In this document: piece by piece, positions 29,545 to 60,941 of the stretch | How the letters are laid out: each line of letters opens with the position of its first letter | How positions within the stretch are numbered: the first letter of the stretch is position 1 | Program-made: the position numbers and the translations under genes | Notes under the pieces: model-generated | Database searches by the model: none | The model's input: only the letters and a program-made list of their open reading frames with translations | What the model was told of the DNA's origin: nothing | Assembly (NCBI GenBank): GCA_030649055.1 | Contig: JAUSGH010000002.1 | Location: 5,357-69,356 of the forward strand | Reading direction: 5' to 3' | From: a bacterium | GTDB lineage: Bacteria > Patescibacteriota > Minisyncoccia > UBA6257 > JAUSGH01 | DNA length: 64,000 nt

Positions 29545-29600
29545 AGTATGTACAAACTCACCCCATTCGCATTATTTGCCGCCATTCGCATTATTCGCGA

Positions 29601-38569: not shown

Positions 38570-38640
38570 ACCGTTATTATAAAAGCAAGAAAGCAAGAAA
38601 GCAAGAAATAGAAACGCCGGTCGCCTCCAGGCGACCGGCG

Positions 38641-41547: not shown

Positions 41548-41549
41548 TT

Positions 41550-42624: not shown

Positions 42625-42662
42625 AACTTTAAACTTGAAGCTTTAAATCTTTAAACCGGCAG

Positions 42663-43589: not shown

Positions 43590-43635
43590 ATCTTTCTGCT
43601 GTTTAAATCTTTAAATATTGAAATAGTTTTTGAAA

Positions 43636-44016: not shown

Positions 44017-44056
44017 AATGGGTATATTTAAACGTTTAAATATTTAAATATTTTTG

Positions 44057-44242: not shown

Positions 44243-44255
44243 TTGCTTTTTGTTT

Positions 44256-47082: not shown

Positions 47083-47092
47083 ATCTTTTGAT

Positions 47093-47140
47093 TATCTGCG
47101 TTCATCCGCGTTGTTATCCGCGTCTTTCCGCTTCTATTCT
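47093..47140. repeat. ATCCGCG-type repeat (family E) abutting the rpsC start codon
   Basis: TCTGCGTTCATCCGCGTTGTTATCCGCGTCTTTCCGCTTCTATTC. Confidence 0.6.
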
Positions 47141-47141
47141 C

Positions 47142-47642
47142 TTATACCGACTTTCTGTTAAAAATCCTCTTTAAAAATCCGGTCTTTTCTTTGCCTGATG
47201 TGCTCGATGTTCCCGCAGTTGTCTTCGGTGTTTTCGGCGCCTTATGCTCACGCGCTTCTTTTTTCGGTTTTTCGGGCTTCGCCATCACGAAGCGCGCGAC
47301 ACGTGTACGCGCGGATTCCGCGAGCGTCAACACCACATGGCTCATTTTTTTCTGCAGCGGCGTTGCCCGTCCCATGGCGCGCGGAAGCGAACGCTTCAGC
47401 ATCGGTCCCTGATCAACAGTAATACTAAACACAATAAGGCGATCCATGTCCATGTTCTTTACTTTCGCATTCGCGCTTGCCGAACGCAGAAGCTTCAGGA
47501 GCGGATGCGCGGCGCGGCGCGCATGGTACAACAACTGCGCCTCGGCTTCGTTCACGGGAAGTCCGCGGATAACATCGGCAACAAGACGCACCTTACGGGG
47601 TGCCATATGCAGATATTGAAGTTTTGCGGTTGCCTGTGTCAT
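47142..47642 (-). CDS. rplV: 50S ribosomal protein L22 (with basic C-terminal extension)
   Basis: APRKVRLVADVIRGLPVNEA...DRLIVFSITVDQGPMLKR. Confidence 0.9.
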   Translation of the reverse strand: MTQATAKLQYLHMAPRKVRLVADVIRGLPVNEAEAQLLYHARRAAHPLLKLLRSASANAKVKNMDMDRLIVFSITVDQGPMLKRSLPRAMGRATPLQKKMSHVVLTLAESARTRVARFVMAKPEKPKKEAREHKAPKTPKTTAGTSSTSGKEKTGFLKRIFNRKSV

Positions 47643-47704
47643 AAACGTTGTATCCTATTCGCGTTATTTTTAGAGCCTTATTCGCGATATTCGTGATTAC
47701 TATA

Positions 47705-48061
47705 CTATTTCTTCGGTACGGCGCTATTTGCGGCTTCGTTTGTTTTTTGCGCCGCGGCTTTTGCCGCTTCCGCCTGCGCGTTTGCCGCTTCAAGCTCGCG
47801 CTGCATCTTACCGCCATGTTTCGTGAATTTCCGAGTTTGAGAAAACTCACCCAACCGATGCCCCACCATTTCTTCCTTAATCGTCACGTTGTTGAATATT
47901 TTTCCGTTGTGAATGCCGATAACAAAGCCTACCATCTCCGGAGAAATTTCCGATGCACGCGCCCATGTTTTTATCGGCGTCAAATCACCAAGCTTCAACT
48001 TGGAAATCTTTTTCAAAAGATGTGGGGCAACGTACGGCCCTTTTTTGCTTGAACGTGACAT
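47705..48061 (-). CDS. rpsS: 30S ribosomal protein S19 (with Ala/Lys-rich C-terminal extension)
   Basis: [19 protein letters not shown]...[17 protein letters not shown]. Confidence 0.9.
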
Positions 48062-48100
48062 ACAATAATCTTTAAATCTTTAAATTTTAAGCATTCCGAT

Positions 48101-48931
48101 TTAGCGCACCTTTGGCCTCCGCTGGGTAATAAACTGCGTGGACCACTTTTTATGCTTACGGGTTTTTCTGCCGCCGGTGACTTTGCCCCAGCGTGTCTTC
48201 GGACGCTTGGTTCCTCTCGGCTGCTTACCTTCACCACCACCATACGGATGGTCCACCGGGTTCATTGCGGATCCTCGCACAGTCGGGCGAATACCCAGCC
48301 AACGCGAACGTCCCGCTTTTCCGATATTAACCAAATTCCACTCCGCGTTGGAAAGCTGACCGACGGAAGCATAGCCGTTCCACGGCACACGACGCGTTTC
48401 TTTTGATGAAAGACGCAAATCCGTATAGCCATCGCTTTGCCCCATGACTTCCGCGTATGTTCCCGCCGAACGCGCAATTTTCCCTCCGTTCCCCGGGCGC
48501 ATCTCCACATTATACACAAACATGCCCGTAGGGAAATGCTTCAACATCAGACGGTTGCCGGTCACGAGCGGCGCAGACTCCGCGACAACAATTTCGTCCC
48601 CTACCTTCATCCCCTGCGGCGCCAAGATATAACGTCGCTCGCCGTCCCGATAAAGCGCAAGCGCGATAAACGCGGTCCGATACGGATCGTATTCAATCGT
48701 TTCAATGCGTGCCGGAATATTCAACTTATCCTGCTTAAAATCCACCATGCGATACGCCTTTTTATTACCGCCACCTTGGTGACGGACGGTAATCCGGCCC
48801 TTATGATTGCGGCCCGCGTGGGACTGCAGGTGGCGCGTCAACGGCTTAAAACGGACATCGGTCGTGACCGTGGAATAGTCAACCGTTGTCATTTGCCGCC
48901 GTGATGGACTTGTAGGATTATAGGATTTCAT
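48101..48931 (-). CDS. rplB: 50S ribosomal protein L2
   Basis: GRNHKGRITVRHQGGGNKKAYR and SAMNPVDHPYGGGEGK motifs. 276 aa. Confidence 0.95.
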   Translation of the reverse strand: MKSYNPTSPSRRQMTTVDYSTVTTDVRFKPLTRHLQSHAGRNHKGRITVRHQGGGNKKAYRMVDFKQDKLNIPARIETIEYDPYRTAFIALALYRDGERRYILAPQGMKVGDEIVVAESAPLVTGNRLMLKHFPTGMFVYNVEMRPGNGGKIARSAGTYAEVMGQSDGYTDLRLSSKETRRVPWNGYASVGQLSNAEWNLVNIGKAGRSRWLGIRPTVRGSAMNPVDHPYGGGEGKQPRGTKRPKTRWGKVTGGRKTRKHKKWSTQFITQRRPKVR

Positions 48932-48988
48932 CTTTTTCTTCTACTCTTTTTCTTATCTCTTACTTCTTACGTCTCATTTCTCTTATTG
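48932..48988. repeat. CTTACTTCTTACGTCT-type pyrimidine-rich repeat (family D) abutting the rplB start
   Basis: TCTTTTTCTTCTACTCTTTTTCTTATCTCTTACTTCTTACGTCTCATTTCTCTTATTGCGG. Copies at 21833-21870, 22528-22565, 52335-52380 (inverted), 57283-57332 and 58268-58307. Confidence 0.6.
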
Positions 48989-49285
48989 CGGCAGTATATC
49001 CAATTTCTCGCCTTTTTTCAAGGTCACGATGACTTTCTTCGGGCGCTGTTCCAATCTGCTTCCGCGACCGGAACGTTTCGGCTTCGGCTGCTGGGTGATA
49101 GCATTGGTTTTTATGACATGCACACCATAGGTACGCTCAACGGCTTTTTTCACCTCCGATTGCGTCGCGCCTTCGGCAACTAAAAAAACATACTTTCCTT
49201 CAGCCGCGGCTGCCGTAGACTTTTCGGAAATCACTGGCCGCCGAAGAACAAACTTATTAAATTGTTTTGTTGCCCTGTTATCCAT
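48983..49285 (-). CDS. rplW: 50S ribosomal protein L23
   Basis: VLRRPVISEKST and a C-terminal Lys-rich extension. 100 aa in the conserved L4-L23-L2 position. Confidence 0.85.
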   Translation of the reverse strand: MDNRATKQFNKFVLRRPVISEKSTAAAAEGKYVFLVAEGATQSEVKKAVERTYGVHVIKTNAITQQPKPKRSGRGSRLEQRPKKVIVTLKKGEKLDILPQ

Positions 49286-49294
49286 ATTGCGTTA

Positions 49295-50041
49295 TTACGG
49301 TTTCGCGGTTCTTTTCGGCAATATCTTCCGTTTTTTCACCGCCTCAACCGAAACTGCTGCTGCCGGAGCCGGTACTGCCTTCTTGTTTTTTGAAACGGCA
49401 TAGTGTTCAGCCATCGTTCCTGCCGCGTCCTTATCAATCACAATCGCACGATAGCGAAGCAAGTCGTAGACATTCAGCGATGTCGGCGCGATTGTTTTCA
49501 TATCCGGCACATTAGCTGAAGCGCGAAACACCATTTTATTTCCCATTGCGGGAATAAGCAACGCGTGACGGGATGACAACACGCCACCGAGTGATTTCAG
49601 CAACTCCTTCGTCTTCGGCGCTTCCGGCATATGCTCAATAAATTTCACCTCTCCCTTTCTCAACCGCTCGGACACAATCGCCGCAAATGCCGCGCGAAGC
49701 ATTTTCTTGTTTATTTTTTGCGCATACGTGCGCTCGGAAACCGGTCCATGAGAAGCGCCACCACCTTTCCAAATCGGAGAACGAATAGAACCATGACGCG
49801 CGCGTCCGGTATGCTTCTGTTTCCACGGCTTTCTTCCGCCGCCACGCACTTCACCGCGTCCCTTCGCGTGCGCCCAAGGTTTCCGCGCATTCGCCATTTG
49901 CGCGACTAGCGCCTGATGCGCCAAGTCCGCGCTCCACTTGCGACCGAAAAACGCGTCCGAGAGTTCGATGTCGGAGGTCGTTGTTCCGTCCAAGTTGTAT
50001 ACAGGCGCTTTCATAGTGTTATTCGCATTATTTCGTTTCAA
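49295..50041 (-). CDS. rplD: 50S ribosomal protein L4
   Basis: GRGEVRGGGRKPWKQKHTGRARHGSIRSPIWKGGG motif. The start may be the internal ATG at about 50014 (MKAPVYNLDG). Confidence 0.9.
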   Translation of the reverse strand: MKRNNANNTMKAPVYNLDGTTTSDIELSDAFFGRKWSADLAHQALVAQMANARKPWAHAKGRGEVRGGGRKPWKQKHTGRARHGSIRSPIWKGGGASHGPVSERTYAQKINKKMLRAAFAAIVSERLRKGEVKFIEHMPEAPKTKELLKSLGGVLSSRHALLIPAMGNKMVFRASANVPDMKTIAPTSLNVYDLLRYRAIVIDKDAAGTMAEHYAVSKNKKAVPAPAAAVSVEAVKKRKILPKRTAKP

Positions 50042-50057
50042 TTCGCATTGTTCGCGA

Positions 50058-50555
50058 TTACTTTGTGATTTCCAAAACGCTGCGTTTATTGTATCCCGGA
50101 ACCGCTCCGCAGATTTTCATAATACGGGACGCGGCATCAATTTCAACAAGCTCCAAATTCTTTATGGTCTTGCGCACACCGCCCATGCGTCCGGCCATGC
50201 GCCGTCCCGGAATAATACGCTGCGGCGACGTGTTGCCAATAGAGCCCGGCGCGCGGAGACGATTTTTCTGACCGTGCGTTTTCGGTCCACCATGAAAACC
50301 GTGCCGCTTCACAACCCCCTGAAAACCGTGGCTTTTGGTGATGCCGGAAACACGCACCAAATCCCCCTCGGCAAAGCCGGAGAGGTCCGCTCCCTCCTCA
50401 ACCTGGATAATGGACACGGGGAAAACCGCGTCATTTTTCCAAACCTGAGTCATATGCAATTTTTTTCCCTTGACCTTCATATTGTTATTCGCGATTACTC
50501 CCCATATTTTACAAAAGACATCTGTGCGCGCGAGGTGGCGCCAGATGTCCTTCAT
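50058..50555 (-). CDS. rplC: 50S ribosomal protein L3 (short form)
   Basis: MKVKGKKLHMTQVW...GFQGVVKRHGFHGGPKTHGQKNRLRAPGSIG. The likely start is the internal ATG at 50480, which gives about 140 aa, shorter than typical L3. Confidence 0.85.
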   Translation of the reverse strand: MKDIWRHLARTDVFCKIWGVIANNNMKVKGKKLHMTQVWKNDAVFPVSIIQVEEGADLSGFAEGDLVRVSGITKSHGFQGVVKRHGFHGGPKTHGQKNRLRAPGSIGNTSPQRIIPGRRMAGRMGGVRKTIKNLELVEIDAASRIMKICGAVPGYNKRSVLEITK

Positions 50556-50569
50556 ATATAGGACGTCCC

Positions 50570-50902
50570 CTATACCATCTTTATTTCAATATCCACTCCC
50601 GCCGGCATATTAAGCGACGAAAGCGACTCAATAATCTGGGCAGTCGGGTTTAGAATGTCAATCAACCGCTTGTGGACGCGAAGCTCAAACTGCTCTCGCG
50701 CGTCTTTATGCACGAATGTCGAGCTGTTCACGGTATAGCGATGCATGTCGGTAGGCAACGGAACCGGCCCAACCACCTCGGCATCATACCGCTTCACCGC
50801 GTCAACAATCTGCTTGCAGGAGTTATCAATCAATTTATGATCGTACGCCTTGATGCGCAAGCGCAATTTCTCCTTCTCCGTTTTGTCCGTTGCAGAGCTC
50901 AT
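50570..50902 (-). CDS. rpsJ: 30S ribosomal protein S10
   Basis: [20 protein letters not shown]...[29 protein letters not shown]. Confidence 0.9.
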
Positions 50903-50907
50903 AGTGA

Positions 50908-52107
50908 CTATTTGGTGATCTTTGTTACAACGCCTGCGCCCACGGTCTTGCCGCCTTCGCGGATGGCAAACCTCTGCTTTTCCTCAAGCGCCACCGGCGC
51001 GATGAGTTTTACCGTCATCTTCACCGTGTCGCCCGGCATCACCATTTCCATACCCGTCGGCAACGTCATTTCGCCCGTCACGTCCGTGGTGCGAATGTAG
51101 AACTGCGGCTTGTATCCGCCAAAAAACGGGGTGTGCCGTCCGCCTTCCTCTTTGGAAAGCACGTACACTTCGCAGTCAAAATCCGTATGCGGATTCACAC
51201 TGCCCGGCTTCGCGATGACCTGTCCGCGCTCCACGTCTTCTTTCTTCAAACCGCGAAGCAAAATACCCACGTTGTCTCCCGCGCGACCTTCGTCGAGCAG
51301 TTTATTGAACATTTCAATGCCGGTCACAACGGTTTTCTGCGTCGGCCGAAGACCGATGACGTCAACTTCCTCGTTGACTTTCGCGATACCGCGCTCAATG
51401 CGCCCGGTCACGACAGTTCCGCGTCCTTCAATAGAGAAGATGTCTTCGATCGGCATCAAGAACGGCTTCGTGATGTCACGGATCGGATCCGGGATAAATT
51501 CATCCAGCGCCTTCACAAGGTCAAAGATCGGTTTGCACGCCGGATCATCGACGGATTTTGCTTCAAGCGCCTTCAATGCTGAACCGCGGATAATCGGAGT
51601 CGTGTCACCCGGGAATTCGTATTTCGTCAAAAGCTCGCGGACTTCGGATTCAACGAGGTCGATGAGTTCCGGATCGTCCACCATGTCACACTTGTTCAAA
51701 AACACGACAAGCGCCGGCACGCCGACCTGGCGAGCAAGCAAAATGTGTTCTCTCGTCTGCGGCATCGGACCATCCGCCGCCGAAACAACAATGATCGCGC
51801 CGTCCATCTGAGCGGCACCCGTAATCATGTTCTTGATGTAGTCCGCGTGTCCTGGAGCATCAATGTGCGCATAGTGGCGCTTTTCGGATTCATATTCCGA
51901 GTGATGCAACGCAATGGTAATACCGCGCGCCTTTTCTTCCGGAGCGCTGTCAATCTGGTCCACGTTCTCCTCCTTCTTCGCGAGACCTTTCATAAAAAGG
52001 ACGTGCGTCAAGGCGGCCGTCAAGGTCGTTTTGCCGTGGTCAACGTGACCGATCGTTCCGACGTTTACGTGCGGCTTTGTACGCTCAAATTTTGCTTTTT
52101 CTGCCAT
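50908..52107 (-). CDS. tuf: elongation factor Tu
   Basis: [14 protein letters not shown]1 motif, [12 protein letters not shown], and the EF-Tu domains 2 and 3. 399 aa. Confidence 0.97.
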
Positions 52108-52439
52108 ATGCGTTTTTTAATTATTATTTTATAAAAATGTGTCGACGAAAACGATTATTAGTAAATGATAAACTATTGAGGGTAAAGATGTCAATACCCC
52201 GTGCCAAATGGCGAAGTATTGTTTAATCTTGCGGAGTATTCAGTGGTGACTACGCGTTATCCACACAAACATGTTAAATGCTACTGACCCTTTATGCTTC
52301 GCCATTTTGCACAGGGTCAATAGGGGCTCTGGGGATAGGCGCAGAGAGAAGTAAGACGTAAGAAATAAGAGGTAAGAAAAACGCAGACGGTCATTGCGAG
52401 TGAAGCGAAGCAATCTTACATTAAGAAATGTTCCCATAA

Positions 52440-53146
52440 AATGGAAGTGCCGTGAGTCAAATATATAAACGAGAAGGAGCCGTGAACCACGAAGGGTCCA
52501 CGGCTCCTGCTGCTACTCACGATGCTGTGCCTACTCGGCAAACCAGACACATCGGGCTGCCTCACCCACCTAGATCCATGCTTGCTGCGATGAGATGGGG
52601 GCGAGAGTCCGAGCATTGCGGTCTGCGCGAGGCAGTCATGTGAGGTTGGGACGGTTGCCCATGATCCTCAACGATCCAACGTTGAATAAGGAAAGGGCAC
52701 GTGTCCCGGGTGCTTGCGTTAGGCACGAGGTTCACTCGACAGCGTCACACGGACGCATAGCTACAGAAACGGCTTGTGGTCCCTGTAGTCACGGTGCCGT
52801 GGTCAGGCCGAGGCGCCCGTCGAGGTCGAGGTGCTTGGTCGAGCTGGTCGTCGAGAATGTCAATTCATAGCACACCAGACAGACCAGCGCGGGATCCCGA
52901 AGTCTCATGATGAGCTCCTTAGTTCGAGTCCTTGTTGGAGCCGCAAGTGACACACACTCGCTTGACCCAGCGAGACAGGGCGGGCGCCTCCGGAGTCCGA
53001 AAACATCCGGAAGCGCCCGAGAGGGTACTTTCTCGTGCATTACCCGTTAGGGCGGCGCTCGGGACATGACCCACTCCTTTTCTCCCCCAAACGCATTAGC
53101 GGGGGCAATAGCGTCATTTGGAAGGTGCTGTCAATCTCAATCGTTA
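52440..53146 (-). other. ORF-poor GC-rich hairpin-rich transcribed region (candidate large structured RNA or long leader) downstream of a sigma-70 promoter
   Basis: No ORF longer than about 100 codons and no recognisable protein. Multiple perfect hairpins (e.g. GGAGCCGTG...CACGGCTCC, GGCGCCTCCGGA...TCCGGAAGCGCC). An internal SD-preceded 39-codon ORF at 52789..52908. Confidence 0.4.
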
Positions 53147-53153
53147 AACGCCA

Positions 53154-53182
53154 GTATACACCCTCCCGAGTGTTTTGTCAAG
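53154..53182 (-). promoter_or_regulatory. near-consensus sigma-70 promoter (TTGACA-17 nt-TATACT) reading leftward toward the GC-rich region and tuf
   Basis: Minus strand GGGTCTTGACAAAACACTCGGGAGGGTGTATACTGGCG. The -35 is at 53182-53177 and the -10 at 53159-53154. Confidence 0.6.
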
Positions 53183-53191
53183 ACCCTCTGG

Positions 53192-53292
53192 GTAGAAGCG
53201 GATTAACGCGGATTTTACACGCGCGGAACCACGCGGAAGCTTTTTTCCGCGTTTATCTGCGTTGTCATCCGCGTCTTTCCGCTTCTATATCT
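53192..53292. repeat. ATCCGCG-type repeat cluster (family E), direct and inverted copies, immediately upstream of the promoter
   Basis: GTAGAAGCGGATTAACGCGGATTTT...CCGCGTTTATCTGCGTTGTCATCCGCGTCTTTCCGCTTCTATATCTCC. Confidence 0.6.
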
Positions 53293-53803
53293 CCACATCT
53301 CCGCACGCCACATACACCTTCACCTCTTCACTGTTTTTGTGGACATTAATCGCAAGCGGCAACTGCGCCTTTAATGCATCCAGTGAAACATCAAGCACGG
53401 AGTCGGATGCGCCGCCCACCAGATACGCAAGCGGATATTTAACCGCTCCCGGATTCGGGCACGCGCCTATGTGAATGTGCGCCGGCTGACTCACGCCACT
53501 CGGCGCGCCGGTAAGCTTCAACGCTACGCGAGTTTTCCCTCCAACGTCTGTGAGCGTCGCGGTGCCGAATTCGCCGGACTTGTTTTGCGCGGAAAGCTCC
53601 ACAACAACCGAATTCGCCTCAACGGCTTCGGAATCCAGCACAAACTCCTCGTCTAATAACACAACATCTGCATCAGACAACATATCCAAATCCTCGGTCA
53701 ACGAAGCACCGCGTCCGTTAAACATAACAACGAGCACCGCCACCGCAACGATCCCCACAAAAATAAGTAAATAGTTTTTCATATATTTATTATACAACAT
53801 CAA
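53285..53803 (-). CDS. secreted CHRD-domain-like protein
   Basis: Signal anchor LLIFVGIVAVAVLVVMF. The motif SQPAHIHIGACPNPGAVKYPL resembles the CHRD-domain AHIHxG pattern. Confidence 0.5.
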   Translation of the reverse strand: MMLYNKYMKNYLLIFVGIVAVAVLVVMFNGRGASLTEDLDMLSDADVVLLDEEFVLDSEAVEANSVVVELSAQNKSGEFGTATLTDVGGKTRVALKLTGAPSGVSQPAHIHIGACPNPGAVKYPLAYLVGGASDSVLDVSLDALKAQLPLAINVHKNSEEVKVYVACGDVEI

Positions 53804-53814
53804 CTACGATAAGA

Positions 53815-54140
53815 GTGCCGCGCCGCAGGCGCTACCTTATCATCACTCACTCACCAACGTGAGGAGAAGGACGAAAAAGCGTTTTTACTTCTGCGCGAAC
53901 CATAAGCGCAGCGACGGTAGTAAAATAGGAATTCAAAAGGGTGCCTTGTTCATTTTAGGCAACATATTGCAGCGATGCGTGAAATTCACGAGTAAAGAAA
54001 TCGCGAAGTCGGAACAATGGCGCTGTGTGAATCCCGAAACCCCCGCAGTGCGGGGGTGAAGGTTGAGTTCGCCTTGTTCCGGTAACTTTCGCGGTTTCTT
54101 ACGAGTAGAATTTCCGCGAGCGGAAATCGTTGCCGAAAAT
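53815..54140. other. conserved multi-hairpin element, copy 3 of 3
   Basis: The core is identical to copy 1 (CGAAGTCGGAACAATGGCGCTGTGTGAATCCCG ... GAAGGTTGAGTTCGCCTTGTTCCGGTAAC). The central hairpin is replaced by CCCCCGC-AGT-GCGGGGG and the 5' hairpin by GCGCC-GCAG-GCGC. Confidence 0.6.
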
Positions 54141-54163
54141 AAACAAGGCGACCGAGAGACAAA

Positions 54164-55216
54164 TTACACTTCAATAACTTTTTCCCAAGGAAGTCCTTCT
54201 TTTCCAAAATGCCCATACGCCGCGGTCTGCAAATAAATCGGCCGGCGCAATTGCAACCGCTCAATAATCGCGTTTGGTCGGAAATCAAACTTTTTCGCCA
54301 CGAGCTTCGCCAAGCTATGCCCTTTTTCATCCACCGCCTCCACCATCATCGGTTCAGCTCTGCCAATGGCATACGACACCGACACAAGACATTGCTTTGC
54401 GTGACCATTCGCCACTAAATTTTTCGCCACAAACCGGCACATATACGCCGCCGAACGGTCCACTTTTGACGGGTCCTTTCCCGAAAACGCTCCGCCGCCA
54501 TGTTGAATAAGTCCACCGTAGGTGTCTACCATGATTTTCCGTCCCGTGAGTCCAGTATCCGCCTCAAATCCGCCCTGCACAAACCGCCCCGTAGGATTCA
54601 CGAGAATCTCAACGCCGGTGAGATCGCCAACTGCGGGCGCAATAAGTTCTTTTGTAAGCGTCGCTTTGATTTCCGCATGCTCCACCGATGCCTCATGCTG
54701 TGTGCTTACCAGCACCGACACAACGTTTTTTCCTTGCATCGTCACCTGCGCCTTGCCATCCGGTTTGATCCAAGAAACCCTGCCCGCACGGCGCAAATCC
54801 TCCAACCCGCGCGTGAGCTTATGCACGAACACTACCCCTTTCGGCAAAAATTCCGGCGTTTCATTCGTCGCGTAACCATACATAATCCCCTGGTCACCCG
54901 CGCCGCCCGTATCCACACCCATCGCGATGTCAGGCGACTGCTCCACAACGTTCGTAATCACTTTCAGATTATTCTGATGACCGATGTCTTTATACACGCG
55001 CTTCGCAATACCCGCATAGTCCACTTTCGCACGCGTCGATACCTCTCCCCCTACAATCAACATCCCGTGTCCGCCGAACGATTCCATCGCCACACGGCTT
55101 TTCGGATCCTGCCGCAAACACTCATCCAACACCGCGTCCGAAACCTGATCGCAAATCTTATCCGGATGCCCCGAGGTTACGCTTTCTACTGTATAAAGTT
55201 TTGGATAATACCCCAT
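54164..55216 (-). CDS. metK: S-adenosylmethionine synthetase
   Basis: ESVTSGHPDKICDQVSDAVLD, GAGDQGIMYGYA and GGGAFSGKDPSKVDRSAAY motifs. Start at the ATG at 55216 (MGYYPKLYTVESV). Confidence 0.95.
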   Translation of the reverse strand: MGYYPKLYTVESVTSGHPDKICDQVSDAVLDECLRQDPKSRVAMESFGGHGMLIVGGEVSTRAKVDYAGIAKRVYKDIGHQNNLKVITNVVEQSPDIAMGVDTGGAGDQGIMYGYATNETPEFLPKGVVFVHKLTRGLEDLRRAGRVSWIKPDGKAQVTMQGKNVVSVLVSTQHEASVEHAEIKATLTKELIAPAVGDLTGVEILVNPTGRFVQGGFEADTGLTGRKIMVDTYGGLIQHGGGAFSGKDPSKVDRSAAYMCRFVAKNLVANGHAKQCLVSVSYAIGRAEPMMVEAVDEKGHSLAKLVAKKFDFRPNAIIERLQLRRPIYLQTAAYGHFGKEGLPWEKVIEV

Positions 55217-55526
55217 ATATAAACGGAAATCTTTCCCTTTAGGAAAGATGTAATAATGTATCTTTCCCCGCGTTCGACAACGCGCGAGCATGACGCTCAA
55301 AGGGCTGGAATTGACACTACGTTTCCGTTTTCGAAATGGATCCCGGGTCTACTGCCTCGGGATTGTTTTTCGATTACAAAAAACAAGTTGTCGCCGGATC
55401 TTCGGGCCAGTTCCCGCACACGCGAAACAGTTCGCGCAATTCCCCGGACTCTTGATGATTAAGTTGTAACTTCTACTATAGCTTCCAATATATCAAACTC
55501 GAAAATAAACGCAAGAGTTTCGCTAT

Positions 55527-55766
55527 CTAAAACTCCGCCAAGATCACTACCTCCGATTTCTTCACCTCCAAGATGCCGCCTACAACGGGAATAGTTTCTT
55601 TTTTCTCTGCGCCGTCAATCACAATATCCCCCGCCATAAGCGGCGTGATGAGCGGGATGTGTCCGGGCAATACCTGCATCCGACCGGAAACCGCCGGCAC
55701 GGAGACGGACTTCGCCTTTCCCACGAACACTTCTTTGCTTAGTGAGTAGATAGAGAGTTGTATCAT
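55527..55766 (-). CDS. atpC: F1 ATP synthase epsilon subunit (short, beta-sandwich only)
   Basis: Lies in the atp operon after atpD. 79 aa with the PGHIPLITPL motif. Confidence 0.8.
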   Translation of the reverse strand: MIQLSIYSLSKEVFVGKAKSVSVPAVSGRMQVLPGHIPLITPLMAGDIVIDGAEKKETIPVVGGILEVKKSEVVILAEF

Positions 55767-55804
55767 GCAATGTCTAAGTTCTAATTCCTAATGTCTGATT
55801 ATTG

Positions 55805-55875
55805 TATTCCTTCGACTTCGCTACGCTCCGCTCAGGAAATAAATTTTTATTCGCTGAGTGCGTCGAAGCGATACC
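55805..55875. repeat. RPE-like palindromic element (full), intergenic atpD-atpC
   Basis: TTCCTTCGACTTCGCTACGCTCCGCTCAGGAAATAAATTTTTATTCGCTGAGTGCGTCGAAGCGATACC. Confidence 0.7.
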
Positions 55876-55913
55876 GTCATTAGAAATTAGAAATTTGTGA
55901 TTAGAAATTTTCC

Positions 55914-57287
<1,374 letters not shown>

Positions 57288-57335
57288 TTATTTCCTATAT
57301 CTTACTTCTTAATTCTTACGTCTTACTTCCCCCCC

Positions 57336-58265
57336 CTACACCGCCATCGCATCCTTTGCTGATGCCATTTCGACCAACTCCTGCGTAATGCTTTCTTGTC
57401 TGGCTTTATTCAGCGCCTGTTGCAATGTTTTCATGATATTCTCCGCGTTTTCCGTCGCGCTCTTCATCGCCACCATACGAGCGGCGTGTTCGGAAGCGTT
57501 TGATTCAAAAATAAGGTGCAGGACTTCCACTTTGACGAGTGCCAACACCAGCGTCTCAAAAATTTTCTGATACGACGGCTCAAACTTATAATATTGTTCG
57601 GATTTTTCATCGACGCGGACGAGCTCGGCATAACGGCCGGACTTCGGCACAATGCCGCGCACAATTTTCTCCAACTCCGGAAGCGAGAGCGGCAGCACCT
57701 CGTGAAATTCCACTTTCTGCACCAGCGCGGAAATAAATGTCGTGGAGCAAAATACAATTTTAGTATACGCACCTGCTTGATATTGCTCCACGAGCCAGTT
57801 GAACACCGGCTCCGCGTCGTAGATTGTCGTGATTTCGGAAAAGTTCGTGAAGGCAAAGGGCATCGTCGCGTTACGCTTCGCAAAATACTCTTTTGACTTA
57901 CGCCCAACAGGAAGCACATGAAGCACTTCGACATCTTTATGCGATTCAATATACCGCGCCGCAGCGCGGAGCACGCCGCTGTTGTAGGCGCCACAAAGTC
58001 CGCGATCGGAAGTGACCACCACCAAACAAATTTTCTCCGGGCCCTCATGTGTACCAAAGTACGGGCTCGTGAGTTCTGCGCGCAGCGCGTACTGCAATAC
58101 ATTCCGCAACAGCGCCAATGCATGCTTCGCGTACGGGCGCGCGCGCATCGCGACGCCTTCAGATTTGCGCATCTTCGCCGCCGCGACCATCTGCATGGCG
58201 CGCGTAATTTGCTTGATGTTCGCCGTCACCCGGATTTTATTTTTGAGTTGATGCTTTGATGCCAT
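57336..58265 (-). CDS. atpG: F1 ATP synthase gamma subunit
   Basis: N-terminal helix IKQITRAMQMVAAAKMRK and C-terminal ITQELVEMASAKDAM. Confidence 0.9.
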   Translation of the reverse strand: MASKHQLKNKIRVTANIKQITRAMQMVAAAKMRKSEGVAMRARPYAKHALALLRNVLQYALRAELTSPYFGTHEGPEKICLVVVTSDRGLCGAYNSGVLRAAARYIESHKDVEVLHVLPVGRKSKEYFAKRNATMPFAFTNFSEITTIYDAEPVFNWLVEQYQAGAYTKIVFCSTTFISALVQKVEFHEVLPLSLPELEKIVRGIVPKSGRYAELVRVDEKSEQYYKFEPSYQKIFETLVLALVKVEVLHLIFESNASEHAARMVAMKSATENAENIMKTLQQALNKARQESITQELVEMASAKDAMAV

Positions 58266-58297
58266 ATCTTTCTTTCTTACTTCCTACTTCTTACGTC

Positions 58298-59848
58298 TTA
58301 CTTCTTTGCCACAAGCCGCGGCATAAAATCCGCGAGCACCGCCTTAAGCTTCGCCTCGGTTGCATCGTCAAATGCCTTTGTCTCACGGATGCTCTGGAGA
58401 ATATCAGGATGCCGGTCGCGCAAATGCGCCCGGAGTTTTAACTCCGCCTCGCGCACGGACTCCAGCGGAAGCTCATCCAAAAATCCGCCGATACCCATGT
58501 AAAACACGCAGGTTTGTTCCTCAAACGGCATGGCGTCATATTGCGGCTGTTTCAGAAGTTCGGTGAGGTGTTGGCCTCGGTCAATGCGCTTGCGCGTCGC
58601 CTCATCAAGGTCTTGCGCAAATTGGGAAAACGCGGCGAGCTCTTCAAATTGCGCAAGCTCCAGTTTCAATTTTGACGCGACTTTCTTGACGGCTTTTGTT
58701 TGCGCCGCGGAACCCACGCGCGACACCGAAAGTCCGATGTTCACCGCCGGCCGCTGGCCTTTCGCGAACAAATCGTTCTCAAGATAAATCTGACCGTCGG
58801 TGATGGAGATGACATTTGTCGGAATGTACGCAGACACGTCACCCAGCTGCGTTTCAATAATCGGAAGCGCGGTAAGCGATCCCCCGCCCTTTTCCTTCGT
58901 CACTTTTGACGCGCGCTCCAACAAACGGGAATGGAGATAAAAAATATCACCCGGGTATGCTTCGCGTCCGGAAGGCCGGCGGAGCAACAGCGCCATCTGC
59001 CGCCACGCCCACGCGTGCTTGGACAAGTCGTCGTAAATAATTAAGGCATCCCGTCCCTTATCGCGGAAGTACTCGCCCATGCTGCATCCCGCGAACGGCG
59101 CGATGTACCAAAGCGATGCCGGGTCCGCCGCGCCGGCGACAACCACGATAGTGTATTCCATCGCCCCGCGTGATTCAAGCTCCTTCACGATTCCGGCAAC
59201 TTTGGAATATTTCTGACCGATGGCGACATATACGCAAATAGGCCGGGTTTCCTTCGGTTCGTTAAGCTGGCTCAGAATCGCGTCAATCGCAAGCGCGGTT
59301 TTTCCGGTTTGACGGTCACCGATGATCAGTTCGCGCTGGCCACGTCCAATCGGAATTGTACCGTCAATAACTTTAATGCCCGTTGCGAGCGAGACATTCA
59401 CCGGTTCGCGGTCAATGACCGGAGGCGCCGGCCGTTCAATCGGTAGATACGTCACTTTTGATTCATCAAAACTGCCCTTGCCGTCCAAGGGAATCCCCAC
59501 CGGGCTTACCACGCGGCCTAAAAGCGCCTCCCCTGTTGGCACCGAAAGCACTTGTCCTGTTTTATGTACGAGATCGCCTTCGTGAATATGGCTGTATTCG
59601 CCGAGCACCACCGCGCCCACGCTGTATTCCTCAAGATTCAAGACCAGCGCCGGCGTCGCGGTTTTTTTAGAACCTTCCGGCCACGGCTCAATCAACACTT
59701 TTTCCGACATCATTGCCCCGCGCAACCCTTCAATCTGCACAATGCCGTCGGCAACGGAAACCACGCGCCCGACCTCTTCACTCTTGGCGCCAAGTTCGGT
59801 TCCCTCAAGTTCCGCTTTTAAAATTTGTACAATATTATCTTCCTTCAT
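58298..59848 (-). CDS. atpA: F1 ATP synthase alpha subunit
   Basis: GDRQTGKTALAID P-loop. 516 aa. Confidence 0.97.
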   Translation of the reverse strand: MKEDNIVQILKAELEGTELGAKSEEVGRVVSVADGIVQIEGLRGAMMSEKVLIEPWPEGSKKTATPALVLNLEEYSVGAVVLGEYSHIHEGDLVHKTGQVLSVPTGEALLGRVVSPVGIPLDGKGSFDESKVTYLPIERPAPPVIDREPVNVSLATGIKVIDGTIPIGRGQRELIIGDRQTGKTALAIDAILSQLNEPKETRPICVYVAIGQKYSKVAGIVKELESRGAMEYTIVVVAGAADPASLWYIAPFAGCSMGEYFRDKGRDALIIYDDLSKHAWAWRQMALLLRRPSGREAYPGDIFYLHSRLLERASKVTKEKGGGSLTALPIIETQLGDVSAYIPTNVISITDGQIYLENDLFAKGQRPAVNIGLSVSRVGSAAQTKAVKKVASKLKLELAQFEELAAFSQFAQDLDEATRKRIDRGQHLTELLKQPQYDAMPFEEQTCVFYMGIGGFLDELPLESVREAELKLRAHLRDRHPDILQSIRETKAFDDATEAKLKAVLADFMPRLVAKK

Positions 59849-59861
59849 ATAGAATCACGGA

Positions 59862-59915
59862 ATGGTTCGACTTCGCTCACCGAATAATATTTCCTGAGCT
59901 TGTCGAAGGATTTCC
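59862..59915. repeat. RPE-like palindromic element (full), intergenic atpH-atpA
   Basis: GTTCGACTTCGCTCACCGAATAATATTTCCTGAGCTTGTCGAAGGATTTCC. Confidence 0.7.
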
Positions 59916-59917
59916 TA

Positions 59918-60304
59918 TTAATCTCGTAACCGTTGTAATTTATTTGTTATTGTTCCGTCGACCAAGACGTCGCTACCAAGACGGAGTGCAACTCCGCCGA
60001 TAACGCGCGGATCAATACGTTCCGCAAATACATACCCCCTTGCTTTGAGGCGCGTTTCAAGCTTTTTCCTTGCAGAACCGCCAAGCGGCCGAGCCGTGAC
60101 AACTTCCGCCACTGTCCCGTCTTTTGCCGCCCACAACCGTTCAAACTCCTTCACCACCTTACCAGCAATCTTTAAATCATTTGAACGCTTCAAGAGCTTC
60201 TTGAAGTTTGCAATGCGCGCCGCAACTATCGCGGGTTTTGCATCCCGCAATGCTTCCACGAGCAGTCGCGCATATACTGTTTGTTTGTGCTGGATGAGAG
60301 ACAT
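59918..60304 (-). CDS. atpH: F1 ATP synthase delta (OSCP) subunit, short
   Basis: 128 aa in the conserved position between atpF and atpA. C-terminal IGGVALRLGSDVLVDGTITNKLQRL matches the delta pattern. Confidence 0.8.
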   Translation of the reverse strand: MSLIQHKQTVYARLLVEALRDAKPAIVAARIANFKKLLKRSNDLKIAGKVVKEFERLWAAKDGTVAEVVTARPLGGSARKKLETRLKARGYVFAERIDPRVIGGVALRLGSDVLVDGTITNKLQRLRD

Positions 60305-60396
60305 ATAAGCAATAAAGCATTAAATCAATAAAGCAAGAAGTTACAAGTTAGTTTTACGTTTTTTTACTTTGCTTCCATGCTTTCTTGCTTTTATGC

Positions 60397-60891
60397 TTAC
60401 ATGAGTGTTTTCATGACTTCTTCCACCGCGCGCTCGTCGTCTTCGGCGGTTACTTTGCGCAAAAGGATTTTCTCCGCCACCATAATAGCCGCCGCGCGAA
60501 TGTCAGCTTTCGCGCCATGCAACGCGTCGCGCGCCATCGTATCCGATTGCGCTTTGGCTTTTTGAAGCATGTCCTCGGCAACCGCCTTCGCGCGTCCTTC
60601 CACTTCGCGCAATCGCGCCTCTGCCTGCACCTTCGTCGCTCCCATCAACTGCTCCGCCTCCGCGTCAGCACGCGACAAAATTTCTTTGCGCGTGATATCA
60701 GCGCGGGCGATTTCTTTCTGCGCCTCCTCATGCATCGCCAAACCTTTTTCAATAGTGGATTTACGATCCTCAATCATGCGCACAATCTTCGGGAAGACAA
60801 AGCGCTTGAGGATCCAAAACACCACCAAAAAATTAAATGCTTGGGCAAAGAGTAACTTTCCGTTAATGCCGAGTTTGGTGAACAACTCCAT
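60397..60891 (-). CDS. atpF: Fo ATP synthase subunit b
   Basis: Single N-terminal TM helix (LFAQAFNFLVVFWILKRFVF) and a long charged helix. Start at the ATG at 60891. Confidence 0.85.
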   Translation of the reverse strand: MELFTKLGINGKLLFAQAFNFLVVFWILKRFVFPKIVRMIEDRKSTIEKGLAMHEEAQKEIARADITRKEILSRADAEAEQLMGATKVQAEARLREVEGRAKAVAEDMLQKAKAQSDTMARDALHGAKADIRAAAIMVAEKILLRKVTAEDDERAVEEVMKTLM

Positions 60892-60892
60892 A

Positions 60893-60940
60893 GTTATCCG
60901 CGACAATCCGTGTCGCTATCCGCGTCCTTCCGCTTCTACG
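60893..60940. repeat. ATCCGCG-type repeat (family E) abutting the atpF start codon
   Basis: GTTATCCGCGACAATCCGTGTCGCTATCCGCGTCCTTCCGCTTCTACGC. Confidence 0.6.
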
Positions 60941-60941
60941 C

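What the first reader, a model, noticed from the sequence alone, without database searches (positions are those of the whole stretch)
47093..60940. Three distinct short repeat families sit immediately upstream of start codons inside the ribosomal and ATP synthase operons, where Shine-Dalgarno sequences would be
- **Family D.** The mRNA sense is GAAGTAAGACGTAAGAAGTAAGA. It abuts the start codons of rplB (48932-48988), atpD (57283-57332) and atpG (58268-58307).
- **Family E.** The mRNA sense is (A/G)TAGAAGCGGAAAGACGCGGATAACAACGCGGAT. It abuts the start codons of secY (41500-41547), rpsC (47093-47140) and atpF (60893-60940). It also forms a cluster of direct and inverted copies just upstream of the strong promoter at 53192-53292.
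- **Family F.** The mRNA sense is GTAATCGCGAATAATGCGAAT, often in tandem. It precedes rplC (50484-50503), rplD (50017-50060), rplV (47655-47700), lysS (35655-35735) and the ftsQ-like gene (29563-29605).
- **SD status.** Most of these genes lack a canonical AGGAGG. The motifs lie 0-15 nt from the initiation codon, so they may act as alternative ribosome-recruitment or translational-control elements, or as internal promoters/operators.
- **Unusual aspect.** Finding three unrelated conserved motif families, each recurring at translation starts within compact operons, is unusual.
Basis: seen in the sequence. Interest (0 to 1): 0.6.

Follow-up and report, generated by a model that had tools for sequence, protein, structure and literature searches.

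The report
Interspersed repeat elements between operon genes
The motifs are real, but they are copies of small, fast-turning-over repeat elements that begin at the upstream gene's stop codon and fill the gaps between operon genes in a CPR bacterium; they are not dedicated substitutes for Shine-Dalgarno sites.

Summary
They are only part of the picture. This Paceibacteria-like (CPR) window carries at least seven short tandem-unit repeat families plus hairpin families.

- **Stop-anchored.** D, E and F are tied to the upstream stop codon: 14 of 15 sense copies start within 6 nt of it, and 7 supply it. Four copies have no start codon nearby.
- **Two forms.** Each family occurs as single sense-oriented arms and as inverted pairs that form long hairpins.
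- **Turnover.** A syntenic sister species (about 85% nt identity) lacks the rplC|rplD and rplV|rpsC elements. It carries different families at four other spacers and shares three elements.
- **Ancestral state.** Clade-wide, these spacers have medians of 5-15 nt.
- **SD use.** SD-like motifs are no more common upstream of starts than in coding sequence (18% vs 14%), with or without elements.
- **Constraint.** Some retained copies are more conserved than third codon positions. Family F belongs to a clade-wide RCGAAT hexamer-array superfamily.

Best reading: REP/REPIN-, MIRU- or TAACTGA-like interspersed elements, co-transcribed, with only generic effects on translation. The factor that moves or binds them is unknown.

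The parts
48951..48982 (-). Family D arm (GTAAGAN heptamer units), rplW|rplB spacer. It starts directly after the rplW TAA and ends 19 nt before the rplB ATG.
   Evidence: Shared with sister species L082, 44/51 identical over the spacer. RNA MFE 0 kcal/mol.
57286..57335 (-). Family D arm, atpG|atpD spacer. It starts after the atpG TAG and ends 7 nt before the atpD ATG.
   Evidence: Present in L082 with an extra 40-nt hairpin insert. Unstructured.
58275..58300 (-). Family D arm, atpA|atpG spacer. The atpA stop codon is the TAA of the first unit (GAAGTAAGACG).
22531..22565 (-). Family D arm at the 3' end of a peptidase-M16-like gene, followed by a hairpin. No start codon within 100 nt.
21834..21859 (-). 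Family D arm at the 3' end of a CYTH-domain gene. The gene's TAG lies in the first unit. It is followed by a GTCATTGCGAG...GAAGCAATCTTAC hairpin. No start codon within 100 nt.
52346..52401 (+). Family D arm plus the GTCATTGCGAG hairpin, on the opposite strand, inside the ORF-less region upstream of tuf.
   Evidence: (I1, I4, I5).
47092..47141 (-). Family E arm (TAGAAGCGGA head plus CGCGGAT units), rplV|rpsC spacer.
   Evidence: Absent from L082, whose spacer is 5 nt. Folds to -13.4 kcal/mol, z -4.5.
41508..41552 (-). Family E arm, rplO|secY spacer. The rplO stop codon is the TAG of the E head.
   Evidence: (D4). L082 has a different family (TAGCG...CTAAACGC) at this spacer.
60894..60941 (-). 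Family E arm, atpE|atpF spacer. It fills the whole spacer up to 2 nt before the atpF ATG.
53193..53287 (-). Palindromic family E element (two inverted arms, terminal inverted repeat TAGAAGCGGA/TCCGCTTCTA). It starts at the TAG of gene 53285-53803 and lies upstream of the 53181-53153 promoter.
   Evidence: RNA hairpin -52.5 kcal/mol, z -8.5.
50018..50060 (-). Family F arm (GTAATCGCGAA head plus GCGAAT units), rplC|rplD spacer. The rplC TAA lies in the head.
   Evidence: Absent from L082, whose spacer is 7 nt; the clade median is 6 nt.
50484..50500 (-). Short family F fragment (GAGTAATCGCGAATAAC) 3 nt before the rplC ATG. It sits at the end of a highly conserved rpsJ|rplC spacer.
47654..47704 (-). 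Family F2 arm (TAGTATAGTAATCACGAATATCGCGAAT...AATAACGCGAAT), rpsS|rplV spacer.
   Evidence: 58/60 identical to L082 against 69% at third codon positions, p = 1e-7. Unstructured.
35652..35736 (-). Composite family F element (an F2 arm plus an inverted F1 arm), greA|lysS spacer. The reverse-oriented arm abuts the lysS ATG.
   Evidence: (I9, I17).
29563..29603 (-). Family F1 arm. The alr stop codon lies in its head. It ends 18 nt before the start of gene 28780-29544.
28684..28782 (.). Palindromic family F element between convergent genes 27524-28708 (+) and 28780-29544 (-). Each arm starts at or near the stop codon of the gene on its own strand.
   Evidence: (I16). Hairpin -38 kcal/mol, z -6.8.
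44243..44276 (-). Family G (AAGCAAGA, period 8) array abutting the rpsN ATG. Not in the finding.
60305..60396 (-). Family G palindromic element filling the atpF|atpH spacer.
21329..21364 (-). Family G array 4 nt upstream of the uvrB ATG.
38582..38608 (+). Family G array in reverse orientation relative to the flanking minus-strand genes. It follows a terminator-like hairpin upstream of adk.
48067..48100 (-). Family H (TTTAAAGA, period 8) array, rplB|rpsS spacer.
   Evidence: L082 has a different family at this spacer.
44025..44056 (-). Family H array, rpsN|rpsH spacer.
43601..43635 (-). Family H array, rpsH|rplF spacer.
42627..42662 (-). Family H array, rplR|rpsE spacer.
   Evidence: L082 has a family F2 arm at this spacer.

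Best explanation
The motifs are copies of several families of small (about 25-100 nt) interspersed repeat elements. They have colonised the stop-to-start spacers of operons in this Paceibacteria-like CPR genome.

**Anatomy (shown).** An 'arm' has a conserved head containing a stop codon (D GAAGTAAGACG, E (A/G)TAGAAGCGGA, F GAGTAATCGCG) followed by 3-5 short units of period 7-11. Arms occur in two forms. Single arms lie in sense orientation against the upstream gene's stop codon. Inverted pairs fold into long interrupted hairpins, like REP singlets and REPIN doublets.

**Dynamics (shown).**
- Copies are inserted, lost and replaced on a short evolutionary time scale.
- The ancestral spacers were 5-15 nt.
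- Which family sits in front of which gene is not conserved.

**Mode of action (inferred).**
- The elements are co-transcribed with the operon.
- Their effect on expression is generic: stop codons close stray reading frames, cistrons are moved apart, and AU- or purine-rich arms put an unstructured leader in front of the next start codon in a genome that barely uses SD.
- Hairpin forms act as 3' stability or termination barriers.
- Constraint on retained copies, and the clade-wide RCGAAT hexamer architecture, imply an unidentified sequence-specific protein. I think a mobilising enzyme is the most likely candidate.
For: - **Non-random, almost wholly extragenic repeats.**. Clade-wide, 76 of 79 RCGAAT clusters are intergenic.
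- **Stop anchoring.** 14 of 15 sense D/E/F copies start -3 to +6 nt from the upstream stop and 7 supply the stop codon. Four copies have no start within 100 nt.
- **Single-arm and inverted-pair forms in every family.** E 53193-53287, F 28684-28782 and 35652-35736, G 60305-60396. D has a palindromic copy in L082.
- **Turnover against sister species L082.** Elements are absent at rplC|rplD and rplV|rpsC. Families are swapped at rplB|rpsS, rplR|rpsE, rplO|secY and atpD|atpC. Elements are shared at rplW|rplB, atpG|atpD and rpsS|rplV.
- **Compact ancestral state.** Spacer medians are 5-15 nt, with sporadic spacers of 30 nt or more at different positions in different lineages.
- **Narrow distribution.** D tandems occur only in the window and L082 among about 160 related loci. 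E head, G and the CCTTCGA hairpin are absent from the 20.8 kb of L082 held. The TAGCG family and the CCTGCC hairpin are absent from the window.
- **Recent copying.** Two F copies are identical over 27 nt (I17).
- **No functional theme.** Genes that share a family are unrelated in function.
- **Orientation.** Single arms are sense-biased: 13 of 14 in the window, and 19 to 6 for orphan arms clade-wide.
- **Structure.** Arm spacers are unstructured and element-preceded starts fold less.
- **No SD enrichment genome-wide**.
- **Published precedents.** REPINs (PMC3116915), MIRUs (PMC3184786) and TAACTGA heptamer repeats (PMC4679880).
Against: - No transposase or RAYT was found in the 64-kb window.
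- No target-site duplication is visible at the two filled/empty site pairs.
- Most arms (D, F, G, H) are tandem direct units, not palindromes. They are therefore not classical REPs.
- Some orthologous copies are much more conserved than a decaying selfish remnant should be. The F2 arm at rpsS|rplV is 58/60 identical against a neutral 69%, and the D arm at rplW|rplB is 44/51 identical. This suggests host-level selection or concerted evolution.
- The sense-strand bias and stop anchoring could reflect an RNA-level function rather than insertion preference.
- Only 64 kb of this genome and 20.8 kb of the sister genome were examined.
Confidence: 0.6

Rival explanations
1. The arrays are cis-binding sites of a conserved host protein, either an RNA-binding protein or a DNA-binding regulator. 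They 'punctuate' operons by setting termination-reinitiation, mRNA processing or cistron-specific decay. The repeat families would then be a regulatory code rather than selfish DNA.
For: - Retained copies are far more conserved than third codon positions (F2 58/60, p = 1e-7; D 44/51, p = 0.005).
- RCGAAT clusters recur 83 times in 2.1 Mb of Paceibacteria loci, against 0-5 for ten permuted controls.
- A fixed 4-hexamer geometry (7, 11, 8 nt start-to-start) is seen 15 times across genomes.
- Hexamers are conserved while the spacers between them are not complementary.
- Orientation is sense-biased.
- An ArsR/SmtB-type regulator gene (12846-13139) has a perfect ATTCGC|GCGAAT palindrome in its own upstream region. 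The half-site GCGAATGG equals the F1 unit.
Against: - Different families occupy the same spacer in sister species, and two elements are simply absent there.
- Most relatives have 5-15 nt spacers with nothing in them.
- Seven or more unrelated unit sequences would need as many binding proteins.
- No candidate RNA-binding protein was identified.
- The ArsR link rests on a 6-8 nt match only.
Confidence: 0.2
2. One reading: the motifs are alternative ribosome-recruitment or translational-enhancer sequences that replace Shine-Dalgarno sites for the genes they precede.
For: - Motifs end 0-19 nt from start codons of SD-less genes.
- D, G and H arms are purine- or AU-rich and unstructured.
- Element-preceded start regions fold less.
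- A published analogue proposes the same for TAACTGA repeats (PMC4679880).
Against: - SD-less initiation is genome-wide, with or without motifs.
- Orthologous genes in L082 and most relatives have no element.
- Copies exist with no start downstream, and one abuts a start in reverse orientation.
- The constant anchor is the stop codon.
- Families are unrelated in sequence and none is complementary to a canonical anti-SD.
Confidence: 0.07
3. The arrays are neutral microsatellite-like expansions produced by replication slippage in AT-rich spacers. They have no mobility and no function.
For: - Units are short (7-10 nt) and tandem.
- Unit number and sequence differ between the window and L082 at rplW|rplB.
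- Tandem Repeats Finder detects them as low-copy arrays.
Against: - Identical composite sequences of 27-50 nt, with non-repetitive heads and spacers, recur at unlinked loci and in different spacers of different species. Examples are the F2 arm in rpsS|rplV of the window and in rplR|rpsE of L082, and the E 33-mer with 2 mismatches at two loci.
- Inverted-pair forms exist.
- Conservation is above neutral.
Confidence: 0.08
4. The motifs are internal promoters or transcription-factor operators that drive or gate transcription inside the operons.
For: - The E palindrome lies next to a strong promoter.
- The F hexamer equals the half-site of an operator-like palindrome.
Against: - Promoter-like sites are not enriched (21 found vs 17.1 +/- 4.3 expected) and none coincides with a D, E or F arm.
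- Unit periods of 7-8 nt put successive sites on different faces of duplex DNA.
- Families are swapped or absent in the sister species.
Confidence: 0.02

Closest known systems
TAACTGA heptamer direct repeats of marine Beggiatoaceae, some Cyanobacteria and Bacteroidetes (MacGregor 2015, PMC4679880)
   Same: - Tandem heptamers in intergenic regions, mostly in 'forward' orientation.
- They end within a few nt of start codons, including inside ribosomal-protein operons.
- SD sites are rare in the repeat-containing spacers.
- Some sets overlap the end of the upstream ORF.
- There is no functional theme among downstream genes, and the function is unknown.

Family D (GTAAGAN, period 7) behaves the same way.
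   Different: - The unit sequences are different.
- Here there are many families per genome rather than one, with conserved non-repetitive heads.
- The anchor is the stop codon.
- Inverted-pair hairpin forms exist.
- Turnover between sister species is demonstrated.
REP / REPIN elements with RAYT transposases (Bertels & Rainey 2011, PMC3116915; PMC3337134)
   Same: - Several short extragenic repeat families per genome.
- Singlets and inverted doublets that fold into hairpins in ssDNA or mRNA.
- Located between genes of operons.
- Repertoires differ between lineages.
   Different: - Classical REPs are themselves G+C-rich imperfect palindromes. D, F, G and H arms are tandem direct units with no self-complementarity.
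- No RAYT gene was seen in the window.
- The arms here are strongly sense-oriented and stop-anchored.
Mycobacterial interspersed repetitive units (MIRUs; Supply et al. 1997, as summarised in PMC3184786)
   Same: - Elements of 40-100 bp within intergenic regions of polycistronic operons.
- Their ends overlap the adjacent genes.
- Unit number is variable.
- Insertion by transposition has been suggested.
   Different: - MIRUs carry small ORFs spanning the unit and are G+C-rich.
- Here only the upstream stop codon is supplied and no consistent mini-ORF exists.
- The units are much shorter.
Cyanobacterial STRR (short tandemly repeated repetitive) heptamer sequences
   Same: Tandem heptanucleotide arrays dispersed at many non-coding sites of a genome, with several families per genome and unknown function.
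   Different: No stop-codon anchoring, operon-spacer preference or inverted-pair forms are known to me for STRRs.
Shine-Dalgarno sites and SD-independent translational enhancers (A/U-rich S1-binding leaders)
   Same: Position just upstream of start codons. D, G and H arms are purine- or AU-rich and unstructured.
   Different: - No complementarity to a canonical anti-SD.
- Not required in orthologues.
- Present where no start follows.
- Family-specific sequences are unrelated to each other.

Membership tests
REP/REPIN (RAYT-mobilised) | Multi-copy, short, confined to extragenic space | tested here: met
   Every copy of D, E, F, G and H lies between called genes or overlaps only their last codons. 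76 of 79 clade-wide RCGAAT clusters are intergenic.
REP/REPIN (RAYT-mobilised) | Each REP unit is itself an imperfect palindrome (a stem-loop of about 20-40 nt) | tested here: not met
   D, G, H and single F arms fold to 0 to -5.5 kcal/mol with z of 0 or above. Only E arms contain small hairpins.
REP/REPIN (RAYT-mobilised) | Inverted doublets that form a long hairpin (the REPIN) | tested here: met
   E 53193-53287 (-52.5 kcal/mol, z -8.5), F 28684-28782 (-38, z -6.8) and G 60305-60396. D palindrome in L082. RCGAAT palindromes in ten other loci have z from -3.5 to -11.
REP/REPIN (RAYT-mobilised) | A cognate RAYT (IS200/IS605-like Y1 transposase) gene in the genome, usually flanked by REPs | tested here: inconclusive
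   The Pfam and NCBIfam scans of the window ORFs examined gave no Y1 transposase. Most ribosomal-protein genes, atpA, atpG and atpD were not scanned. Only 64 kb of the genome is available.
MITE | Terminal inverted repeats | tested here: met
   Palindromic E has the 10-bp terminal inverted repeat TAGAAGCGGA/TCCGCTTCTA. RCGAAT palindromes end in ATCA...TGAT. Single arms have no terminal inverted repeat.
MITE | Target-site duplication flanking the insertion | tested here: inconclusive
   The filled/empty site pairs at rplC|rplD and rplV|rpsC (window vs L082) show no clear duplication. The flanks have diverged.
TAACTGA-type heptamer direct repeats | Tandem direct heptamers in intergenic regions, forward-oriented, ending a few nt upstream of a start codon, with SD rare | tested here: met
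   Family D: period 7, ending 7-19 nt before the rplB, atpD and atpG starts, with no SD.
TAACTGA-type heptamer direct repeats | The unit sequence TAACTGA itself | tested here: not met
   The units here are GTAAGAN, AAGCAAGA, TTTAAAGA, CGCGGAT... and GCGAAT....
MIRU | Element ends overlap the stop and start codons of the flanking operon genes, with a small ORF running through the unit | tested here: not met
   The upstream stop codon is supplied in 7 of 15 copies. No consistent ORF runs through the arms, and start codons are not part of the elements.
Shine-Dalgarno site | A purine-rich core complementary to the 16S 3' tail (GGAGG-like), 5-10 nt upstream of the start | tested here: not met
   No GGAG, GAGG or AGGA in most motif-bearing leaders. 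Genome-wide, 13 of 73 genes (18%) have one against 14% background. The 16S tail itself was not available. A canonical tail is inferred from extended SDs such as GAGGGGGTGATCC before 27431.
Sigma-70 promoter | -35 and -10 hexamers with 16-18 nt spacing | tested here: not met
   21 sites found against 17.1 +/- 4.3 expected. None coincides with a D, E or F arm.
Any curated RNA family (Rfam 15) | A covariance-model match | tested here: not met
   No gathering-score hits in the window. At E-value up to 1 in 47000-61300 there is only a weak SAM riboswitch and one weak sRNA (ASdes) match inside atpA, neither at a repeat.

The most novel reading that the evidence does not exclude
The arms are recognition arrays of a conserved, still unidentified Paceibacteria machinery. 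Two versions remain open.

(a) An RNA-level 'operon punctuation' system. A sequence-specific protein binds hexamer or heptamer arrays placed right after stop codons. It sets reinitiation, processing or decay at cistron boundaries in SD-poor CPR genomes.

(b) The ends of a new kind of mobile element whose autonomous form carries a small GxxExxY (PD-(D/E)XK) nuclease gene. Such genes sit between ++++ and ---- RCGAAT arms in the rpsG|fusA spacer of L003 and L024. The common +++--- palindromes would be its cargo-less derivatives.

Either version would explain the fixed 7-11-8 hexamer geometry across genera and the above-neutral conservation of retained copies.
Probability: 0.18. Interest if true: 0.75.

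Novelty: new variant of a known kind. Interest (0 to 1): 0.45.

Why it matters
CPR/Patescibacteria genomes are regarded as small and streamlined (my own background knowledge). My four text searches on CPR or Patescibacteria repeats, heptamer repeats and GxxExxY found no paper on their repeat content. This window shows that even the ribosomal-protein and ATP-synthase operons are densely populated by many families of tiny, stop-anchored, sense-oriented repeat elements. These turn over between sister species, yet include copies under strong constraint and a clade-wide hexamer-array architecture.

- **Annotation.** Longest-ORF start calls run into the repeats, and stop codons are donated by the elements.
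- **Strain typing.** The elements are variable markers.
- **Translation in SD-poor bacteria.** The data argue that the motifs are not a new ribosome-binding signal.
- **Open question.** Something must copy or bind these arrays. That unidentified factor is the genuinely open and testable point.

Tried and rejected
- **Rfam.** The gathering-score search of the whole window found nothing. The E-value search of 47000-61300 gave no family at any repeat.
- **tRNA/tmRNA scan.** None found.
- **Promoter/terminator scan.** No enrichment and no coincidence with the repeats (one search failed on length).
- **Exact-protein lookup of rplW.** It returned only a 2.4-kb contig identical to the window, which gave no polymorphism information.
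- **Search for a 16S 3' end in all fetched loci.** None found, so the anti-SD could not be read directly.
- **Viral-contig scan with the D 17-mer.** All 15 hits lie inside phage coding sequence (E-V-R-R-K-K) and are chance matches. The RCGAAT 4-hexamer pattern gave 0 hits.
- **Palindromic 'operator' versions of the D, E and G units.** None found in intergenic contexts. Only F has one.
- **Mini-ORF coupling as in MIRUs.** There is one ATG-AGA-CGT-AAG-AAG-TAA mini-ORF in rplW|rplB, but it is not general.
- **GxxExxY genes.** None in the window and only three in about 160 loci. There is no literature on their mobility.
- **Literature.** A search for CPR intergenic repeats found nothing relevant.
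- **CsrA-type GGA sites in family E, and Hfq ARN or TRAP/HutP-type triplet arrays in family D.** I considered these from memory only. The unit sequences do not fit, and I did not test them.

Full report
**1. Observation**

The window is mostly minus-strand genes. It includes an S10/spc ribosomal-protein operon (about 40219-52107) and an ATP synthase operon (55527-62063). Gene identities come from Pfam and from translations and operon order.

They cannot be chance. With up to 3 mismatches the D 23-mer has 10 matches at 6 loci, the E 33-mer has 2 and the F 21-mer has 5. Dinucleotide shuffles gave 0 in every case.

The picture is broader than three families. Repeat and tandem-repeat scans and a listing of all intergenic regions show further tandem families:
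- G: AAGCAAGA, period 8.
- H: TTTAAAGA, period 8.
- I: GTCCTAT.
- J: TTTCTAAT.

They also show several hairpin families, for example CCTTCGAyAAGCTCAGG (14 pattern matches) and GTCATTGCGAG...GAAGCAATC.

**2. The organism and its use of SD**

The best species representative in GTDB has only 75% RplB identity. All hits are Patescibacteria/Paceibacteria-type MAGs. A Logan contig from SRR13727527 is identical to the window.

SD-like 4-mers at -20 to -4 precede 13 of 73 called genes (18%). The background in coding sequence is 14%. The genome therefore hardly uses SD at all, whether or not a repeat is present. A few extended SDs, such as GAGGGGGTGATCC before the gene ending at 27431, imply a conventional anti-SD. 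This is an inference, because no 16S sequence was available.

**3. Anatomy**

A curated table (with sequences) shows that the constant positional feature is the upstream stop codon.
- The heads of D, E and F start -3 to +6 nt from it in 14 of 15 sense copies.
- In 7 of these the stop codon is part of the head (atpA, the CYTH gene, rplO, gene 53285, rplC, alr, gene 28780).
- Distance to the next start codon varies from 0 to 19 nt.
- Four copies have no start within 100 nt.
- F abuts lysS in reverse orientation.

Each family has single arms, which are sense-oriented in 13 of 14 cases in the window, and inverted pairs.
- Single D, F, G and H spacers are unstructured (MFE 0 to -5.5 kcal/mol, z of 0 or above).
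- The inverted pairs fold strongly: E 53190-53290 at -52.5 kcal/mol (z -8.5) and F 28684-28782 at -38 kcal/mol (z -6.8).
- A palindromic D element exists in the sister species.

**4. Comparative evidence**

A metagenome contig, L082 (Ga0209514_10000327), is syntenic with the window. RplB is 97% identical and DNA is about 85% identical.

| Spacer | Window | L082 |
|---|---|---|
| rplC\|rplD | F element, 43-nt spacer | none, 7-nt spacer |
| rplV\|rpsC | E element, 59-nt spacer | none, 5-nt spacer |
| rplB\|rpsS | H | TAGCG/CTAAACGC family |
| rplO\|secY | E | TAGCG/CTAAACGC family |
| atpD\|atpC | J plus hairpin | TAGCG/CTAAACGC family |
| rplR\|rpsE | H | F2 |
| rplW\|rplB | D | D |
| atpG\|atpD | D | D plus an extra hairpin |
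| rpsS\|rplV | F2 | F2 |

Across about 160 related loci the median spacer is 5-15 nt for nearly every gene pair. Spacers of 30 nt or more appear sporadically at different positions in different lineages (examples). The elements are therefore insertions into ancestrally compact spacers, and the family in front of a given gene is not conserved.

D tandems occur only in the window and L082. The E head, G and the CCTTCGA hairpin are missing from the L082 locus. L082's TAGCG family and CCTGCC hairpin are missing from the window.

**5. Evidence that the sequences are nevertheless constrained**

Third codon positions are 69.4% identical between the window and L082.

| Spacer | Identical | p |
|---|---|---|
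| rpsS\|rplV (F2) | 58/60 | 1e-7 |
| rplW\|rplB (D) | 44/51 | 0.005 |
| atpG\|atpD (D) | 41/54 | not significant |

Family F also belongs to a clade-wide superfamily.
- Clusters of RCGAAT/ATTCGY occur 83 times in 2.1 Mb of loci (35 of 162 sequences searched, the window included). Ten permuted control motifs gave 0-5.
- One recurrent architecture is a four-hexamer arm with 7, 11 and 8 nt start-to-start spacing. It is seen 15 times.
- A second is the palindrome ATCA-ACGAAT-a-ACGAAT-N5-ACGAAT-at-ACGAAT ... TGAT.
- A third is the single arm GAGTAATC-RCGAAT-N2-3-GCGAAT-N13-16-GCGAAT, found in at least five other loci besides the window (L082, L005, L039, L050 and L058/L135).
- The hexamers pair in the predicted hairpins, but the spacers between them largely do not.
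- Clusters start a median of 12 nt after a stop and end a median of 18 nt before the next start. Orphan single arms are sense-biased, 19 to 6.

**6. Interpretation**

These features fit small interspersed repeat elements of the REP/REPIN, MIRU and TAACTGA-repeat kind (PMC3116915, PMC3184786, PMC4679880) better than dedicated translation signals.

Shown:
- Extragenic, multi-family, with single and inverted-pair forms.
- Stop-anchored.
- Inserted, lost and swapped between sister species.
- No functional theme among the flanking genes.
- No SD or promoter character.

Inferred:
- Co-transcription with the operon.
- Generic effects on expression. Start regions preceded by an element fold less than those preceded directly by coding sequence (median -1.7 vs -4.5 kcal/mol, p = 0.003). 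The elements may therefore incidentally favour independent initiation in an SD-poor genome. Orthologues without them show they are not required.
- Hairpin forms acting as stability or termination barriers.
- A sequence-specific protein that copies or binds the arms.

They are not classical REPs. Most arms are not palindromic, and no RAYT or other transposase was found in the window ORFs scanned.

**7. Leads toward the unknown factor**

- In L003 and L024 a GxxExxY (TIGR04256) gene lies in the rpsG|fusA spacer between a ++++ arm and a ---- RCGAAT arm. In L085 a homologue is flanked by another inverted array. This is a possible autonomous form, but there are only three cases.
- An ArsR/SmtB-type gene (12846-13139) has the perfect palindrome ATTCGC|GCGAAT in its own upstream region. 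Copies lie at 12315 and 16157. Its half-site GCGAATGG equals the F1 unit.

Neither link has been tested.

**8. Verdict**

- The 'SD-surrogate, promoter or operator' interpretation is largely not supported.
- Novelty: a new variant of a known kind. The variant is stop-anchored, sense-oriented, tandem-unit interspersed elements in CPR operons, with a clade-wide hexamer-array family.
- Interest is moderate at 0.45. The open and potentially novel part is the machinery behind the arrays.

Noticed in passing
window 52108-53284 (minus strand): A 1.18-kb ORF-less region sits upstream of tuf, where rpsL-rpsG-fusA would normally lie. A near-consensus promoter (TTGACA-17-TATACT, 53181-53153) is followed about 650 nt later by a strong terminator hairpin (52508-52475). 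A second strong promoter lies at 52194-52165. This is a candidate long non-coding RNA with no Rfam match. The small ORFs inside it have no Pfam hit.
   Followed up: partly
window 7929-8146, 16240-16467, 53934-54150: Three copies of an element of about 220 nt (65-92% identical) lie in regions upstream of genes. The ORFs that overlap them have no Pfam hit. The 53866-53722 stretch next to the third copy aligns to L082 at only 74%. It could be a repeated non-coding RNA or leader.
   Followed up: partly
window 55255-55431 (minus): A weak SAM riboswitch (RF00162) match, 26 bits against a gathering score of 44.4, E = 0.036. It covers the full model and lies directly upstream of the metK gene (54164-55300). 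It is plausibly a divergent real S-box.
   Followed up: partly
window 12303-12335, 13139-13171, 16145-16169; gene 12846-13139 (minus): Perfect or near-perfect palindromes CATTCG(C/T)GCGAATG lie next to TATAAC or TAGAAT -10-like boxes. One is in the upstream region of an ArsR/SmtB-family regulator gene, and others precede neighbouring genes beside uvrC. This is probably that regulator's operator. The half-site equals the family F hexamer.
   Followed up: partly
window 50481-50569 (rpsJ|rplC spacer); L002, L004, L006, L009, L011, L013, L022, L032, L038 upstream of rplC: The rpsJ|rplC spacer is 86/89 identical to the sister species, against 69% at third codon positions. It is at least 30 nt long in all 48 related loci measured (median 106 nt). 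Many of these carry a terminator-like hairpin with a U-tract just before rplC. This could be a conserved attenuator or autoregulatory leader.
   Followed up: partly
window 45893-45948 (rplP|rpmC spacer); L004, L038 upstream of rplB; L082 rplF|rplR: The spacer contains two GCTCACTATA boxes and is 54/56 identical to L082. Related TTCGACAAGCTCACTATAAAT sequences occur in other genomes at other spacers. The core TTCGACAAGCTCA is shared with the window's CCTTCGACAAGCTCAGG hairpin family. From memory, CTCACTATA also resembles phage single-subunit RNA polymerase promoters.
   Followed up: no
window 4273-4400, 6775, 7328, 13921-13999, 18659, 19174-19230, 19952-20028, 39389, 40031, 55814-55858, 59888, 61218-61293: A hairpin repeat family (CCTTCGAyAAGCTCAGG paired with its complement) lies mostly at gene 3' ends and between convergent genes. 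It looks REP- or terminator-like. It is absent from the 20.8 kb of the sister species that was examined.
   Followed up: partly
L003:3084-3530, L024:1915-2375, L085:3700-4260: A GxxExxY (TIGR04256, PD-(D/E)XK-type) gene of about 125 aa is inserted between rpsG and fusA in three related genomes. In each case it is flanked by inverted repeat arrays (RCGAAT arms in L003 and L024). The layout is transposon-like.
   Followed up: partly
window 37747-37876: Between convergent map (36886-37746, +) and adk (37877-38596, -) lies another palindromic repeat made of AAATCC(C/T)AA / TTGGGATTT units. Similar units occur upstream of rpsC in L022 and L024.
   Followed up: no
window 4408-6765 (minus): A 785-aa protein with TrwB/TraG-type coupling-protein and HerA-like ATPase domains. 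It may be part of a type IV secretion, conjugation or DNA-uptake system in a small CPR genome.
   Followed up: no
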